Positions 2,063 to 53,706 of a stretch of DNA of 64,000 nt are shown piece after piece. Source of the stretch: a virus; the IMG/VR virus record IMGVR_UViG_3300045902_000666, positions 1-64,000 of that record. One strand, 5' to 3'. Under the pieces are notes generated by a model. The model worked only from the letters and a program-made list of their open reading frames with translations. It was not told the DNA's origin and ran no database searches. The first letter of the stretch is position 1. Each line of letters begins with the position of its first letter. The position numbers were made by a program, and so were the translations under genes.

Positions 2063-2728
2063 TTATTTAAACTCTGAAATCAAAGAATAATCTTTATTTA
2101 ATTCTTCAATTAATGCTTTTTCACCTAATCTTTCTTTTAACTTTCTTAACCACTCGTTTGTTTTTACTTTTACAATCCACACATCTCTTTTACCATCCTG
2201 ACTTACTCCTTTACACATCACGCCTTCTTTTAAATTATATTTTCCTTCTTTCACATCATTAATAAATTCAGGAGTTAAAGGCCCTTCATAAATTATTTTT
2301 GGTATATGTAAGTTTCCAAAATCTTTTACAAACTGTTTAGGTTCTATGAAACTTCCATTTGTATAATCTCCCGGAGCAACATCAAAAAGAACCAAATCCA
2401 TTTTATCTCCTTCTTGATGTTTTCCAGAAAAAGAATTTTCCCCAACCCATTCAAAGAACGCTACAAAATTTTTTGTGTTTCTGTAATTTTTATTTTTTGA
2501 AAAAATCTCTTCTAAAGCTTCAGCATACTTTTCTTTAAACATTGGAATCACTTGTCCAAATTGTGAATTCTTTTCATCAAACATTGAAGTCCTGGAACCA
2601 AACTTATGCCAGCCTTTATTTTTTGACCATTCTATACGAATGTTCTGACCATCCAATTTATCAAAAGCAATAACCTTAGCATCCAGAATGCCTTTATTCC
2701 AATATTCGATATGCGGATATGCTTTCAT
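2063..2728 (-). CDS. ATP-dependent RNA ligase (nucleotidyltransferase domain)
   Basis: Motif I KLDGQN, FFEW, LFDV, EGVMCK, VKVK. Confidence 0.75.
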   Translation of the reverse strand: MKAYPHIEYWNKGILDAKVIAFDKLDGQNIRIEWSKNKGWHKFGSRTSMFDEKNSQFGQVIPMFKEKYAEALEEIFSKNKNYRNTKNFVAFFEWVGENSFSGKHQEGDKMDLVLFDVAPGDYTNGSFIEPKQFVKDFGNLHIPKIIYEGPLTPEFINDVKEGKYNLKEGVMCKGVSQDGKRDVWIVKVKTNEWLRKLKERLGEKALIEELNKDYSLISEFK

Positions 2729-3925: not shown

Positions 3926-3933
3926 AGTTTTTG

Positions 3934-4023
3934 TGCACCTAGAGGGATTCGAACCCACGATGGAAGGAAGACCTTCTTCAGATTAAAAGTCTGATGCTTT
4001 CGGCCAGCTAAGCGAATAGGTGC
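3934..4023 (-). tRNA. tRNA-Lys(TTT) with long variable arm
   Basis: CTTTTAA loop; GAAGG-TCTT-CCTTC extra arm. Confidence 0.8.
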
Positions 4024-5781: not shown

Positions 5782-5930
5782 TTGCAGGGATATTTGAAGA
5801 GAAATTTTTTTAGCGCTCTAACCAACTGAGCTACGGAGTCCATAATTTTTTTTATTGGGACCTCCGATGGGACTCGAACCCACGACCTCTCGTTTAACAG
5901 ACGATGAACTTCTTTATCTTGCCACTGCAA
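5782..5930 (-). ncRNA. Y-RNA (YrlA)-like RNA with permuted tRNA domain (Asn-like)
   Basis: Paired ends TTGCAG/CTGCAA; order is T arm, 3' acceptor, loop, 5' acceptor, D arm; motifs AGTGGCAAG and TATCCCTG. Confidence 0.65.
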
Positions 5931-6049
5931 TTTTTTTCAATATTTCAAACTCAAAGAACAATTTTTTTGCCCATCAGGTTGGATTCGAACCAACTTCTTC
6001 CTTCCGAAAAATATGTAGCTACAACATATTCTTCTAACGAAGAGGTTTG

Positions 6050-6139
6050 CGGGGGAGGTAGGACTCGAACCTACTTTATTTCAATATTTTCAGTCACTGC
6101 TTAACAGGCAGCCGCTAAAACCGCTTCAGCTACACCCCC
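6050..6139 (-). tRNA. tRNA-Asn(GTT) with long variable region
   Basis: CTGC-CTGTTAA-GCAG arm, ~22-nt variable region. Confidence 0.7.
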
Positions 6140-6848: not shown

Positions 6849-6856
6849 ATAAAAAT

Positions 6857-6923
6857 AGGGATAATCGAACAAGAGTGTTATTTTTGCTTAAAAGGCGAAG
6901 TAACCCTTTTTATCTTGCCACTG
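6857..6923 (-). ncRNA. minimal member of the AGTGGCAAG..GTTACTTCG..TATCCCT RNA family
   Basis: Same end motifs as 5782-5930 with no tRNA domain; GC-CTTTTAA-GC mini hairpin. Confidence 0.55.
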
Positions 6924-25663: not shown

Positions 25664-25738
25664 AGCAGAAGACGGGACTCAAACCCGCCTCTATTTCATC
25701 TTGGCAACGTTATGTACCACCAATTATGCGTTAACTGC
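25664..25738 (-). pseudogene. degenerate tRNA-Gly(GCC) overlapping the HNH stop codon
   Basis: T arm retained; acceptor and anticodon stems mismatched. Confidence 0.55.
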
Positions 25739-26230
25739 ATTTCTTTTTTCTCGTCTTTTTTGTCTACCATTCCCTTTATTAGCACCTCCCCATGTTTTAG
25801 TTAGAGAATGACAATTGGGGCATAAAAGTTTAAGATTTTTTATATCATTATTTTCTGAATTTCCATCTACATGTTCTATTTGAATTGGTATTTTTCCTGT
25901 AAATTTATTTACCTTATCCCATCCGCACTCCATGCATTTTTCCCCAAACTTAAAAATAAGATACCGTTTAAAAGTCTCTTCATGATAATTCAAGCATCCA
26001 GATTCTATTTTATAAAAAGTTTCCTTTTTTCTAAATTCACCTTGACATTTGTTACTACAATATTTACTGCTATTGCGTTTTAACTGTCCTCCACACTCAA
26101 TACATTCTCCATATTTTTTCTTTTCACGCTTAACATTATTGTATTTTGCTGCACAAGATGAATTACAAAATTTCTTTCCATATTGAATTTCTTCATTGCA
26201 ATTTTTACATTTTTTCGAATTATCAACCAT
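25724..26230 (-). CDS. HNH homing endonuclease
   Basis: IEHVDGN..N..NLKLLCPNCH. Confidence 0.9.
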   Translation of the reverse strand: MVDNSKKCKNCNEEIQYGKKFCNSSCAAKYNNVKREKKKYGECIECGGQLKRNSSKYCSNKCQGEFRKKETFYKIESGCLNYHEETFKRYLIFKFGEKCMECGWDKVNKFTGKIPIQIEHVDGNSENNDIKNLKLLCPNCHSLTKTWGGANKGNGRQKRREKRNAVNA

Positions 26231-26279
26231 TTTTTATTTTATAAATAGGTTGAAATTTCGAAATTCAAAGAACTAAATG

Positions 26280-26351
26280 AGCGGAGAAGGAGAATCGAAC
26301 TCCCGTTCAAACCTTGGCAAGGTCTTGTAATAGCCACTATACGACCTCCGC
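26280..26351 (-). tRNA. tRNA-Gly(GCC)
   Basis: Canonical, U73. Confidence 0.9.
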
Positions 26352-26356
26352 ATAAT

Positions 26357-26488
26357 AAAACAGGGTTAGGTGAGTAGTGTGTTTTTTGGTGATTTATCCG
26401 GGAGTTTAACCCAGACCTTTTTCTGGAAATGAAAATGCTCTTCACAGAGCTTATAAATCGAAGTAACACTATTTCTTGCCACTGTTTT
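26357..26488 (-). ncRNA. member of the Y-RNA-like family with degenerate T arm
   Basis: AAAACAGTGGCAAG..GTTACTTCG..AACCCTGTTTT. Confidence 0.55.
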
Positions 26489-26492
26489 TTTT

Positions 26493-26568
26493 AGCACTAG
26501 GTGAGATTCGAACTCACGGCAATTCCTGCTTGGAAGGCAGGCGCAATCGACCACTATGCGACTAATGC
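26493..26568 (-). tRNA. tRNA-Gly(TCC)
   Basis: CTTCCAA loop. Confidence 0.85.
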
Positions 26569-26574
26569 AAATAG

Positions 26575-26745
26575 AATGTAGGGATTTTTTTCGAAATGTA
26601 TTTTTTCTAAGCTGGGTTTAACCACTCCCCTACCTCCCCATTTGTAAATTTATAAATTGCGGGGAGGGCTGGATTCGAACCAACGTAGAGCCTAAGCTCG
26701 GCTGCTTTACATGCACGAAGTAACAATTCAAATTGCCACTACATT
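26575..26745 (-). ncRNA. Y-RNA-like RNA with permuted tRNA-Tyr-like domain
   Basis: Paired ends AATGTAG/CTACATT; GTA loop, variable arm, T arm, CCTCCCC-loop-GGGGAGG, then D arm. Confidence 0.65.
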
Positions 26746-26776
26746 ACTCAATACTTTCAAAGAACAACTTCTTCAG

Positions 26777-30400: not shown

Positions 30401-30600
30401 AGTTATCCATGTCTTACTCAAATAACTACTCCCTCTTTTTACTTAGTTGTTTTTACTTACAATCTATTTTACCAAACCTGTCCAGACCCTTCCTCTGGCT
30501 CTTGGTTTTTTTAGCCTTTGCGTGTGTTATTTGATAAACATCAAAAGCTTTCATTACAACCTTTCATTAGAGCGCTTTCGCTACTCTTTCAAAATCACTG

Positions 30601-30731
30601 CTGGGGGCCCAAGACTCGAACTTGGACTACGGCTTTATGATTGCGAAGTAACTCTTTTACATCGCCACTGTTTGCCAGGGATAATTTGCCTAGAGTATGT
30701 TTTACGTGTGCTACCCTTACACTAACCCCCA
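30601..30731 (-). ncRNA. Y-RNA-like RNA in the opposite permutation (ends at the tRNA acceptor stem)
   Basis: tRNA 5' half, TTATCCCTG-GCAAA-CAGTGGCGATG..GTTACTTCG, tRNA 3' half. Confidence 0.65.
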
Positions 30732-30743
30732 ATATCAAAGAAC

Positions 30744-31255: not shown

Positions 31256-31316
31256 TGTTTTTGGTTTTTATTCTGTTACCAATATATATAGTTGCTCATT
31301 GTATAGAAATTTATTC

Positions 31317-32585
31317 CTATGCAACAAGTTTATAAGCGTTTTGACTTTTGACTTCTGGTTTCCCTGAAATCGGAATCGTAAATCTTACTGGGCGAACTAC
31401 AACGCCCTCTATTCCATCGGCAAAAGCGTTTGGAATTACTTTTCTGATAATGTTGCCACTACCATTGCAGTCAGCATTGATTAGAATTTTTTTATTGCTT
31501 CGGAATAAACCTCTTTTTATTCTTCTGCCAGCATATTTTTCCTTATGCCTTATTTCTTCATTATCAAGGAAACTGCATTTGCTGGTATGGTTTTCTTCCT
31601 TTGCAATAACTTTCATTCCAATCAAATCACCTTTGTATTGCAGCATTTCAATAAATCTGGCAAATGGAATAGAAACAAAATTCTGATTGCTCTGCGCTCC
31701 CATATTTACCTCTTGCTTCCAATTTTTGTTCTTTCCAATGATAAGAGTTCCTATTCCATAATCTGAAAGACGATTGATAATGAACCTGCTTGCCTTGTGC
31801 AAATAGTCATCTATCTTCATATTGCGCTTAAAAGTCAGTCGTTCAATCTGATTGCTTGTTCTTCTGTTCTCATCTTCTTTCATCAGTTCACTCATCAGTT
31901 CTGCCTTTCGTTTATTGAAATACTGGTTGATACTCTTTAATGGTCTGCCGTTAATCAAAAGTGGTGTCCACTTATTATGATTTGATGTTACAGCCCCAAG
32001 ATTATCAACTCCTATATCAATTCCTGCCACTAAATTCTTGTTCAACTTTCTGTTTTTCCTTCTTTGTTCATAGACAACTTCTATTTTGTATTTTTTATTT
32101 TTAAGAGGAATAATTCTTGCTTGATTGATTTTATTGTGCAGAATTTTTATTTTAATATCAGTTCCAGAAAGATGTAAAATAAATTCTTCAAGTTCTGGCT
32201 TTGAAATTGCCTGAATAGTATAGATAAGAATGTTTCTCCCTGCTGTTTTGTGTTTGTATCTGGGTAGTTTAGGACGACCTTTGAATTTATCAGGATTTGC
32301 TTTCCATTCTTTTATTGACTTAAAAAATGATTTCCAATTCCTGTCAAGTTGCATCAAAACCTGCTGGCTTACCTTTCTTGGCAATGCTTCATAATCTACA
32401 TCTTTTGAGTTCTGCAGTTGTTTTTGTAAATCATTATAACGAATCCATTTTTTGTTTTTAATAAATTCTTGACGAATAATATAATTGGCTCTGTTGTAGA
32501 GATTCTTTGAAAGAAAACAAATCTTATCAATTTCTTTATAGAAATCAGAGTTATTGCTGATAATATGTTTTTCAACTAATTTCAT
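31317..32585 (-). CDS. tnpB: TnpB RNA-guided nuclease (IS607-like, tnpA lost)
   Basis: GIDIG, EENHTSKCS, INADCNG. Confidence 0.9.
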   Translation of the reverse strand: MKLVEKHIISNNSDFYKEIDKICFLSKNLYNRANYIIRQEFIKNKKWIRYNDLQKQLQNSKDVDYEALPRKVSQQVLMQLDRNWKSFFKSIKEWKANPDKFKGRPKLPRYKHKTAGRNILIYTIQAISKPELEEFILHLSGTDIKIKILHNKINQARIIPLKNKKYKIEVVYEQRRKNRKLNKNLVAGIDIGVDNLGAVTSNHNKWTPLLINGRPLKSINQYFNKRKAELMSELMKEDENRRTSNQIERLTFKRNMKIDDYLHKASRFIINRLSDYGIGTLIIGKNKNWKQEVNMGAQSNQNFVSIPFARFIEMLQYKGDLIGMKVIAKEENHTSKCSFLDNEEIRHKEKYAGRRIKRGLFRSNKKILINADCNGSGNIIRKVIPNAFADGIEGVVVRPVRFTIPISGKPEVKSQNAYKLVA

Positions 32586-32698
32586 TTTTTGCTTTCTAAT
32601 TGTTCTGTAATATTTTTCTATTTACAACTATCAATATCTATTAAATAGTTCAAATATTAAGATACCTAAATTTCAGAAATGTAACCCAAGTTTAAAAA

Positions 32699-53608: not shown

Positions 53609-53616
53609 ATATTTTG

Positions 53617-53706
53617 CACGTTGGGAAGGATTCGAACCCTCGAAGAGTTAATTACACTCTTTACAGTTTTGGAGACTGCTGCCTTCAACCACTCGGCCAC
53701 CAACGT
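53617..53706 (-). tRNA. tRNA with CCA anticodon and long variable arm
   Basis: CTCCAAA loop; AAGAGT..ACTCTT extra arm. Confidence 0.8.

What the first reader, a model, noticed from the sequence alone, without database searches (positions are those of the whole stretch)
30601..30731. The same Y-like RNA encoded in the opposite circular permutation
Seen: here the ends are the tRNA acceptor strands, and the conserved stem is internal with its strands swapped and closed by a GCAAA loop. At 5782 and 26575 the stem forms the ends and the acceptor is closed by a loop. Inference: the shape matters and the position of the break does not, implying a circular or two-piece form, or exchange between tandem copies. 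It is the first RNA after attenuator 2.
Basis: partly seen in the sequence, partly recalled or inferred. Interest (0 to 1): 0.75.

Follow-up and report, generated by a model that had tools for sequence, protein, structure and literature searches.

The report
Y RNA written in tRNA order
This 131-base phage gene is a transfer-RNA-shaped partner RNA (Y RNA) of the phage's Ro60 protein, laid out in normal tRNA order. Described bacterial Y RNAs have the rotated order. I found no published account of this layout, which recurs in many phages, including the cultured gut phage crAss001.

Summary
On the minus strand, 30731-30601 runs from U1 to the discriminator of a tRNA-like RNA: a 7-bp acceptor stem, a D arm and a T arm. 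Between the D arm and the T arm lies a hairpin closed by GCAAA. This hairpin carries the handle shared by the genome's other Y-like RNAs (YAGUGGCRA ... GUUACUUCG / A-rich ... AUCCCUR). In those RNAs, at 5782-5930 and 26579-26741, the handle forms the ends and the acceptor stem is closed.

The handle matches the published YrlA hallmarks (GNCGAA-like motif, YUAY). The genome encodes Ro60. The motif sits beside Ro60 genes in many phages.

Rotated at the loop, the RNA aligns with the end-stem copies (z 5.3-10.4; unrotated 0.2-0.3 against the two window copies, 4.6 against the third). I found 19 distinct tRNA-order relatives in phage and metagenome contigs (96% of cells paired, 22 of 26 pairs with compensatory changes). 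Three lie directly upstream of a Ro60 gene. Two more copies lie unannotated behind the TROVE gene of Bacteroides phage crAss001.

Best reading: a YrlA-type Y RNA in native tRNA order, matured like its tRNA neighbours. This is a new variant of a known kind. Nothing supports a circular form, and splicing into a working tRNA is unlikely. There are no expression data. Earlier notes of this scan report phage Y-like RNA sets with other handles on other DNA, but their summaries do not mention this layout.

The parts
30601..30731 (-). E8: complete tRNA-order Y-like RNA, from U1 to discriminator G73 (131 nt)
   Evidence: Sequence. Covariance model R1 scores it at 121.5 bits (E8 is one of the sequences the model was built from). 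ARAGORN and Rfam tRNA models do not call it.
30725..30731 (-). Acceptor stem, 5' strand UGGGGGU; pairs with 30602-30608
   Evidence: The acceptor helix is 96% paired, with 6 of 7 pairs showing compensatory changes across 19 relatives.
30706..30722 (-). D arm (GUGU / AAGGGUAGC / ACAC), preceded by U8 A9
   Evidence: helix 100% paired. U8 and A14 are invariant. The Levitt pair 15:48 covaries: A:U 13 times and G:C 7 times among 24 sequences.
30692..30705 (-). G26, the A-rich linker UAAAACAU, and the P2 3' strand ACUCU
   Evidence: P2 covaries (UCGGU/ACCGA, UCAGU/ACUGA, AGAGU/ACUCU, ACAGU/ACUGU).
30665..30680 (-). P1 hairpin: CCCUG, loop GCAAA (30675-30671), CAG(U)GG with a bulged U. This is the handle helix that forms the RNA ends in the other copies.
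   Evidence: All 5 P1 pairs show double changes across relatives. In relatives the loop is often a GNRA tetraloop (GAAA, GCAA, GUGA).
30660..30666 (-). GGCGAUG, the counterpart of the GNCGAA(N)G motif proposed as the Ro60 contact site in YrlA
   Evidence: Motif definition from PMC4201824; sequence. It matches 6 of 7 positions.
30644..30655 (-). P2 5' strand AGAGU followed by UUACUUCG (contains the conserved YUAY of YrlA)
   Evidence: GTTACTTCG is invariant in alignment A1.
30626..30643 (-). V region CAAUCAUAAAGCCGUAGU: an eroded anticodon-arm-like hairpin. Orthologues have GCA / AUUCAUAAA / UGC.
   Evidence: The same V sequence occurs in an end-stem-order relative upstream of a Ro60 gene (L173).
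30609..30625 (-). T arm CCAAG / UUCGAGU / CUUGG
   Evidence: helix 100% paired, 4 of 5 pairs with double changes.
30601..30608 (-). Acceptor 3' strand GCCCCCA plus discriminator G, followed by CA
   Evidence: N73-CA follows 14 of 19 tRNA-order RNAs; 27 of the phage's 38 tRNA calls are followed by AA, and 35 end in C after the discriminator.
26579..26741 (-). E5: end-stem-order copy (handle at the ends). Its 7-bp acceptor stem is closed by a loop that starts G-CAAUUU and ends AAAU.
   Evidence: rotated E8 aligns at z 5.4.
5782..5930 (-). E6: end-stem-order copy of the canonical YrlA type. Its acceptor-like stem has 8 bp plus a bulge and is closed by a loop.
   Evidence: (RF02553 33.7 bits).
26361..26484 (-). 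E4: the same handle enclosing a degenerate normal-order tRNA-like RNA with an encoded CCA
   Evidence: Rfam tRNA model 44.8 bits at 26390-26459.
6856..6923 (-). E3: stand-alone handle RNA with only a small hairpin as cargo

Best explanation
E8 is a YrlA-type Y RNA, a partner RNA of the phage's Ro60 protein, encoded in native tRNA order.

The likely course of events (all inferred, nothing here is measured):
1. It is transcribed as the first cistron of the attenuator-controlled tRNA operon.
2. RNase P cuts its 5' end, and its 3' end is trimmed and CCA-tailed, like the tRNAs behind it.
3. The product is an L-shaped tRNA-like body with free acceptor ends.
4. Where the anticodon arm should be, it carries the Ro60 docking helix: P1 with a bulged U, an internal loop with GGCGAUG, P2 and UUAC. 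This helix is closed into a hairpin.
5. Ro60 (gene at about 67.3-68.9 kb of the same contig) binds that helix. The tRNA-like body serves as the effector or tethering module, as proposed for YrlA.

The end-stem copies in this genome reach a similar shape from the other permutation. One (E5) would probably be nicked by RNase P into two pieces. Another (E6) probably stays closed.

The permutation most likely arose, more than once, by unequal exchange within tandem arrays of such genes.
For: Shown:
- All modules of the genome's Y-like family are present in E8 in the same circular order. Rotation makes E8 align to end-stem copies at z 5.3-10.4, against 0.2-0.3 unrotated for the two window copies and 4.6 for L173.
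- The family fits the published YrlA hallmarks: a GNCGAA-like motif on the 5' strand, YUAY, T and D arms, and Levitt-pair covariation.
- The genome encodes a TROVE plus Ro60-vWA protein, with three handle RNAs just upstream of it.
- Loci fetched only by the RNA motif carry Ro60 genes in about 25 phage or metagenome loci.
- There are 19 distinct tRNA-order relatives: 96.3% of cells paired, 22 of 26 pairs with double changes, slid controls 41-51%. A hand-made 6-sequence alignment gives 99.4% and 16 of 26.
- tRNA-order copies lie directly upstream of Ro60 on the same strand in L143, L144 and L149. In crAss001 and 19 other cultured phages they lie 274 nt behind the TROVE gene.
- 6 of 10 viral records with this form encode TROVE. 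Of the four without, three are 3-11% fragments; the fourth, G004, is a 100% complete genome with no TROVE match.
- A tRNA-order RNA in another phage shares long identical stretches with this genome's end-stem copy E6 (rotated z 11.1).
- The 3' flank N73-CA matches the phage's real tRNAs.
- DNA contigs of relatives from other habitats bridge the locus.

Precedent: M. smegmatis YrlA is cut by RNase P and CCA-tailed in vivo and stays bound to Ro60.
Against: - There is no RNA evidence of any kind: no RNA run holds the stretch.
- Ro60 binding is inferred from motif and neighbourhood only.
- The motif differs from GNCGAAG at one position.
- E8 lies about 37 kb from the Ro60 gene.
- It is untested whether Ro60 accepts the helix when its outer end is closed by a loop.
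- One complete 33-kb phage with a tRNA-order copy has no TROVE gene.
- Rfam's YrlA model does not reach its threshold on any copy.
- The single-sequence minimum-energy fold of E8 (-35.8 kcal/mol) differs from the comparative structure (-27.3 to -29.8).
- Alignment A4 was fitted to the model, which favours the structure.
Confidence: 0.7

Rival explanations
1. A tRNA-shaped RNA with the same handle that works without Ro60. It could be a decoy or sensor for host tRNA-targeting defence nucleases or CCA-end toxins, or it could bind another phage protein through the handle.
For: E8 sits in a tRNA operon 37 kb from Ro60. One complete phage with a tRNA-order copy lacks TROVE. Earlier scan notes report tRNA-mimic RNAs with non-Ro60 partners on other DNA (not checked here). 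The genome carries an Rnl2-type RNA ligase within its tRNA array, which points to a conflict over tRNA integrity.
Against: The handle is the one found beside Ro60 genes in dozens of loci, and it matches the published Ro60-contact motif. tRNA-order copies abut Ro60 genes in four independent phage groups.
Confidence: 0.17
2. A split or intron-bearing tRNA gene. The handle would be recognised, cut out and the flanks ligated, via a circle for the end-stem copies, to yield a working tRNA as in the permuted tRNA genes of Cyanidioschyzon.
For: In some relatives the V hairpin has a 7-nt loop of anticodon-loop format (CUNNNAA). In E6 and L085, one or two nucleotides after the D arm could complete a 5-bp anticodon stem (my reading). 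An RNA ligase gene is present. Wang et al. raised this possibility for YrlA.
Against: - The anticodon-like triplet varies among near-identical orthologues (UAA, UGA, UAA, GAA; GUU, GCU, UCU).
- In E8 and its clade the V stem has only 2-3 bp.
- I saw no bulge-helix-bulge motif by eye and made no search for a splicing endonuclease. No RtcB is present in the fragment.
- The would-be anticodons duplicate tRNAs the phage already has.
- D and T arm sequences follow the YrlA pattern.
Confidence: 0.07
3. A functionless by-product of recombination between tandem Y RNA or tRNA genes that merely looks like a complete RNA.
For: Junctions between tandem end-stem units give the same module order and are picked up by the model at about 42 bits. 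E8's V hairpin is eroded relative to its orthologues.
Against: Orthologues in at least five independent contigs keep all five helices through compensatory changes, including the acceptor stem that joins the two halves. The closing loops are often GNRA tetraloops. The locus is retained in relatives from estuary and wastewater samples. The crAss001 copy is 99-100% identical in 20 cultured phages and 84-88% identical, with compensatory changes, in two further species.
Confidence: 0.05

Closest known systems
YrlA-type bacterial and phage Y RNAs (Rfam RF02553; Chen et al. 2014, PMC4201824; Wang et al. 2018, bioRxiv 10.1101/312249)
   Same: It has a handle helix with a GNCGAA-like motif on its 5' strand, the conserved YUAY, and a tRNA-like body with T and D arms. 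U8, A14, the GG of the D loop and a covarying 15:48 pair are present. It is linked to a Ro60/TROVE gene and is encoded among tRNA genes.
   Different: The gene order is the reverse permutation: D arm before T arm, free acceptor ends, and the handle closed into a hairpin. The literature I could read describes YrlA as 'circularly permuted tRNA' with T before D and a closed acceptor stem. I found no description of the tRNA-order layout. RF02553 does not detect it.
Two-piece YrlA of Mycobacterium smegmatis (Chen et al. 2014)
   Same: The end product is a Ro60-handle RNA whose tRNA-like body has an open acceptor stem made by RNase P, with a CCA tail.
   Different: There the open acceptor end is made by cutting a one-piece end-stem precursor, which gives two RNAs. 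Here it is encoded directly, which gives one RNA with a closed handle.
Circularly permuted ssrA genes giving two-piece tmRNA in alpha-proteobacteria and some cyanobacteria (from my own knowledge; Rfam beta_tmRNA gave a weak hit on E5, E 0.3)
   Same: It is a tRNA-like RNA family whose gene exists in two circular permutations in different lineages while the folded shape is kept.
   Different: That is a different RNA family and function. For tmRNA the permuted form is the derived, two-piece one.
Permuted and intron-bearing tRNA genes of Cyanidioschyzon merolae (Soma et al. 2007, as cited)
   Same: The same structured helix lies either at the ends (permuted genes) or inside (intron genes) of tRNA-shaped precursors.
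   Different: Those use a bulge-helix-bulge motif, a splicing endonuclease and a ligase, and they yield decoding tRNAs. No such motif is seen here, no conserved anticodon, and the helix is a Ro60-type handle.

Membership tests
YrlA-type Y RNA | A Ro60/TROVE protein gene in the same genome, usually within a few kb on the same strand | tested here: met
   A TROVE plus vWA_Ro60 ORF of 531 aa lies at about 67.3-68.9 kb, which is 37 kb from E8. Other handle RNAs lie directly upstream of it. tRNA-order relatives abut Ro60 genes in L143, L144, L149 and crAss001.
YrlA-type Y RNA | GNCGAA(N)G motif on the 5' strand of the handle helix | tested here: inconclusive
   E8 has GGCGAUG, 6 of 7 positions. Relatives have GGCGAGG, GGCAAG, AGCGGGA or AGUGAUG. 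The position and context are the same, but the sequence is not identical to the consensus.
YrlA-type Y RNA | Conserved YUAY after the handle, ahead of the V region | tested here: met
   UUAC lies within the invariant GUUACUUCG. YUAY is described.
YrlA-type Y RNA | tRNA-like domain with T and D arms and tRNA tertiary-pair nucleotides | tested here: met
   The D and T helices are 100% paired. U8 and A14 are invariant, and 15:48 covaries as A:U or G:C in 20 of 24 sequences.
YrlA-type Y RNA | Gene order: handle 5' strand, V, T, closed acceptor-like stem, D, handle 3' strand | tested here: not met
   E8 has the opposite permutation. This is the point of the finding. E5 and E6 in the same genome do meet this feature.
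YrlA-type Y RNA | Score at or above the RF02553 gathering threshold (69 bits) | tested here: not met
   There is no hit on E8. The best hit in the genome is E6 at 33.7 bits.
YrlA-type Y RNA | Physical binding to Ro60 | not testable with these tools
   This needs EMSA or RIP.
Canonical tRNA | Cloverleaf with a 5-bp anticodon stem, a 7-nt loop and a conserved anticodon | tested here: not met
   ARAGORN and Rfam tRNA models do not call 30601-30731. The V stem has 2-3 bp in the E8 clade. The triplet varies among orthologues in other clades.
Permuted or intron-bearing tRNA genes matured by splicing | Bulge-helix-bulge motif at the junctions, plus a splicing endonuclease and ligase | tested here: inconclusive
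   I saw no BHB-like 3-4-3 geometry by eye. No RtcB is present in the 101-kb fragment. An Rnl2-family ligase is present. The genome is only about 37% complete, and I did not search for an endonuclease family.

The most novel reading that the evidence does not exclude
Both gene orders could be precursors that are cut at the conserved handle and rejoined, through a circle for the end-stem copies and by intron-like excision for E8. The handle and Ro60 would act as the guide and a phage RNA ligase as the joiner. This would give phages of bacteria a protein-guided tRNA splicing or permuted-tRNA pathway, so far known only in archaea and eukaryotes.
Probability: 0.05. Interest if true: 0.9.

Novelty: new variant of a known kind. 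Interest (0 to 1): 0.64.

Why it matters
Bacterial Y RNAs of the YrlA type are described as circularly permuted tRNAs. Their origin has been explained by a dimeric-tRNA transcript model (Sim and Wolin 2018, as cited).

A conserved Y RNA in plain tRNA order bears on that origin. It has free acceptor ends, and the Ro60 handle sits as a hairpin where the anticodon arm belongs. It shows that a single tRNA-shaped gene can carry the handle. It also shows that the two layouts interconvert, apparently repeatedly, in tandem arrays.

It bears on function too. This form should be matured and CCA-tailed like a tRNA, so Ro60 would be tethered to something that the tRNA machinery can handle.

Two unannotated copies sit behind the early-expressed TROVE gene of crAss001, a cultured human-gut phage with published infection RNA-seq. 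The idea can therefore be tested directly.

Tried and rejected
- No RNA holder was listed for window:24000-33000, so there is no expression or end-mapping evidence.
- Single-sequence folds were uninformative: z -1.4 for E8, -0.6 and -0.8 for the other two.
- Rfam at E<=5 gave no family for E8.
- An exact pattern for the hairpin arrangement with the CCCTR/YAGTGGC helix found nothing in viral contigs. Looser patterns were needed.
- Searches for relatives with the neighbouring 458-aa AAA protein found none.
- blastn of E8 against GenBank phages found no match.
- The model found no tRNA-order copy in 120 bacterial loci carrying the 5' handle pattern. Ten of these loci have Ro60. It also found none in four other Ro60-bearing GenBank phages: LR745206.1, csAssE-Sib, Vibrio phage Va1 and Bacillus phage G.
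- 'Relatives' cannot be drawn for a virus record.
- Two reviews (PMC6047535, PMC10870794) are not held.
- I considered and dropped a small ribozyme, a group I intron (the insert is only about 62 nt) and a promoter-only explanation for the shared motif.
- A resemblance of E8's acceptor stem to tRNA-Gln or to initiator tRNA rests on my memory only and was not pursued.

Full report
**What is there.**
The window is the first 64 kb of a 101.7-kb viral contig, estimated about 37% complete. Its minus strand carries about 38 tRNA genes, a GOLLD RNA and an amber-suppressor tRNA.

Read on the minus strand, 30731-30601 is a 131-nt RNA. It has a 7-bp acceptor stem (UGGGGGU/GCCCCCA), U8 A9, a standard D arm with GG in its loop, a standard T arm (UUCGAGU loop) and discriminator G. 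Between the D arm and the T arm there is no anticodon arm. Instead there is an A-rich linker and a two-helix hairpin:
- P2: ACUCU/AGAGU.
- An internal loop.
- P1: CCCUG/CAG(U)GG with a bulged U, closed by GCAAA.

The 5' strand of this hairpin runs CAGUGGCGAUG ... GUUACUUCG. ARAGORN and Rfam call no tRNA here.

**The same modules elsewhere in the genome.**
YAGTGGCRA occurs 8 times in the window against 0.97 expected. On the minus strand it is followed 8-10 nt later by GTTACTTCG in six copies genome-wide; a seventh copy has GUGUGGCAAG and lies outside the YAGTGGCRA pattern.

All copies end with an A-rich stretch, a P2 partner and AUCCCUR, and P1 and P2 covary. The cargo between the two handle strands differs:
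- A small hairpin: 6856-6923, and two copies at about 69.0-69.2 kb.
- A degenerate normal-order tRNA with encoded CCA: 26361-26484.
- A large domain at about 70 kb.
- A tRNA-like body in the order V, T arm, acceptor 3' strand, loop, acceptor 5' strand, D arm.

E8 has every module in the same circular order but is broken at the acceptor stem instead of at P1. Rotating E8 at its GCAAA loop gives the following alignment scores:

| Aligned against | Rotated z | Unrotated z |
|---|---|---|
| E5 (26579-26741) | 5.4 | 0.3 |
| E6 (5782-5930) | 5.3 | 0.2 |
| L173, an end-stem relative in another contig | 10.4 | 4.6 |

**What the family is.**
Chen et al. 2014 define YrlA Y RNAs by a GNCGAA(N)G motif near the 5' end, a conserved YUAY, and T, acceptor-like and D stem-loops that mimic tRNA, encoded within a few kb of Ro60. 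Here the motif is GGCAAG or GGCGAUG and the YUAY is UUAC.

The evidence that links this family to Ro60:
- The contig encodes a 531-aa TROVE plus Ro60-vWA protein, with three handle RNAs directly upstream.
- I fetched viral and metagenome loci using the RNA motif alone. About 25 of them turned out to carry a Ro60 gene next to the motif.
- RF02553 hits E6's tRNA-like body at 33.7 bits, below threshold.

I therefore read the handle as a Ro60 docking site. Binding itself is inferred.

**Is the tRNA-order layout real or an accident?**
Pattern scans found the same layout in other phage contigs. Six sequences aligned by MAFFT gave 99.4% paired cells and 16 of 26 pairs with changes on both sides, against 38-52% paired when partners are slid.

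A covariance model built from them (R1) found only E8 in this genome. It found many more elsewhere. In all there are 19 distinct sequences, with 96.3% paired cells and 22 of 26 pairs with double changes in all five helices. That alignment was fitted to the model, so it leans towards the structure.

Other features point the same way:
- U8 and A14 are invariant, and the Levitt pair covaries as A15:U48 or G15:C48 in 20 of 24 sequences. This is the behaviour reported for YrlA.
- The closing loops are often GNRA tetraloops.
- The closest orthologues of E8 (85-92 bits) keep the acceptor, T, P1 and P2 helices through compensatory changes. For example, CCCUG/CAG(U)GG becomes CUCUG/CAG(U)AG.
- DNA contigs of relatives from estuary and wastewater samples bridge the locus, with 40 and 90 differences over 1.2 kb.

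**Link of this layout to Ro60.**
- tRNA-order copies lie 110-460 nt upstream of a Ro60 gene on the same strand in L143, L144 and L149.
- Six of ten viral records with this layout encode TROVE. Of the four without, three are 3-11% fragments and one is a complete 33-kb genome.
- Bacteroides phage crAss001 has a 59.7-bit copy at MH675552.1:96453-96596. This is 274 nt behind TROVE gp96, in an unannotated gap, and a second, weaker copy follows it.
- The first crAss001 copy is 99-100% identical in 20 cultured phages. It is 84-88% identical, with compensatory changes, in cr106_1 and cr112_1.
- The crAss001 TROVE gene is an early gene. I found no paper tying it to Y RNAs.

**Both layouts within one sequence group.**
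A tRNA-order RNA of a 211-kb phage shares the T arm and D arm sequence of this genome's E6 almost letter for letter (rotated z 11.1, unrotated 3.6). E8's V region recurs in an end-stem copy upstream of Ro60 (L173).

The permutation has therefore happened at least twice. R1 also scores the junctions between consecutive end-stem units in tandem arrays at about 42 bits, which shows how unequal exchange could produce it.

I found no tRNA-order copy in 120 bacterial loci carrying the handle pattern, ten of them with Ro60. So far the layout is a phage feature.

**How it probably works.**
Shown: the structure, its conservation and its genomic company.

Inferred: E8 starts 12 nt after the U-tract of the attenuator-2 terminator, so it is made when that tRNA operon reads through. 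Its 7-bp acceptor stem, intact elbow nucleotides and N73-CA 3' flank argue that RNase P and the 3' end and CCA machinery treat it as a tRNA. That flank follows 14 of 19 tRNA-order RNAs, and 27 of the phage's 38 tRNA calls are followed by AA.

M. smegmatis YrlA is processed exactly so and stays on Ro60. E8 would be the one-piece equivalent. E5 has a 7-bp stem and a loop shaped like a trailer plus leader, so it would become two pieces. E6 has 8 bp plus a bulge and would stay closed.

What the tRNA-like body recruits is unknown, as it is for YrlA.

**Rivals.**
- Splicing to a working tRNA is unlikely. The anticodon-like triplets differ among near-identical orthologues. E8's V stem has 2-3 bp. No RtcB is present in the fragment. 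However, an Rnl2-type ligase is present and the genome is incomplete.
- A Ro60-independent role cannot be excluded.
- A dead recombination product is contradicted by the covariation.
- A circular form has no support.

**Literature.**
Wang et al. [quoted passage not shown] Searches for YrlA, Ro60, phage and permuted forms found no description of a tRNA-order Y RNA. Two reviews are not held, so I cannot rule out a mention there.

Earlier notes of this scan describe phage Y-like RNA sets with other handles on other DNA.

Noticed in passing
window 31290-32676: The IS605-type TnpB gene (31317-32585, minus strand; OrfB_IS605 plus Cas12f1-like TNB domains) is missing from DNA contigs of related phages. 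Those contigs jump from about 31287 to about 32662-32677, so this is an insertion polymorphism next to attenuator 2.
   Followed up: partly
MH675552.1:96453-96596 (L312:2501-2644) and L312:2756-2894: Two unannotated tRNA-order Y-like RNAs lie in the 900-nt gap behind TROVE gp96 of the cultured Bacteroides phage crAss001. At least one stand-alone handle RNA lies just after the TROVE stop.
   Followed up: partly
window 26361-26484 (-); also L033: The Y handle can enclose a whole normal-order tRNA-like RNA. In the window copy the D loop lacks GG, the T loop is UUAAACU and CCA is encoded. Another phage has two such units, so this is a third topology of the family.
   Followed up: partly
window, 19 sites on the minus strand against 1 on the plus strand (21 against 2 in the whole genome), e.g. 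30735-30743, 26757-26765, 5951-5959: GTTCTTTGA recurs just before or after tRNA and Y-like genes. GTTCTTTGA or GTTCTTTAA also sits upstream of such RNAs in unrelated phage contigs (L066, L173, L083, L177). It could be a promoter part or a processing signal; I did not resolve which.
   Followed up: no
window 30560-30600 (-): Directly after E8 comes CAGUGAUUUUGAAAGAGU followed by a small hairpin with GCGAAAG. It resembles the 5' handle of the stand-alone Y RNAs that follow tRNA-order copies in other phages. I saw no 3' partner strand.
   Followed up: no
window 5970-6045 (-): A T-arm-bearing, tRNA-like fragment (GUUGGUUCGAAUCCAAC) lies between tRNA-Asn and E6 and is not called by ARAGORN or Rfam.
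   Followed up: no
window 6049-6139, 3933-4023, 53616-53706 and others (-): Several class I tRNAs are 85-91 nt long. In the one I read (Asn, 6049-6139) this is due to an A-rich insert of about 20 nt in the variable region; I did not inspect the others.
   Followed up: no
window 2165-2677 (-): An Rnl2-family RNA ligase domain (PF09414, 38 bits) lies in a 223-aa ORF inside the tRNA array.
   Followed up: no
L138:487-592, L139:951-1054, L165:2572-2675: Other phages carry tRNA-shaped genes in which a long perfect hairpin of about 35 nt replaces or interrupts the anticodon region. This hairpin is unrelated to the Y handle.
   Followed up: no
window 25688-26350 and 26490-26566: Relatives' contigs lack the HNH endonuclease ORF region (661 nt skipped, 45 other letters in its place). 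They also have a different 72-nt sequence in place of tRNA-Gly(tcc). The tRNA array is therefore a mosaic.
   Followed up: no
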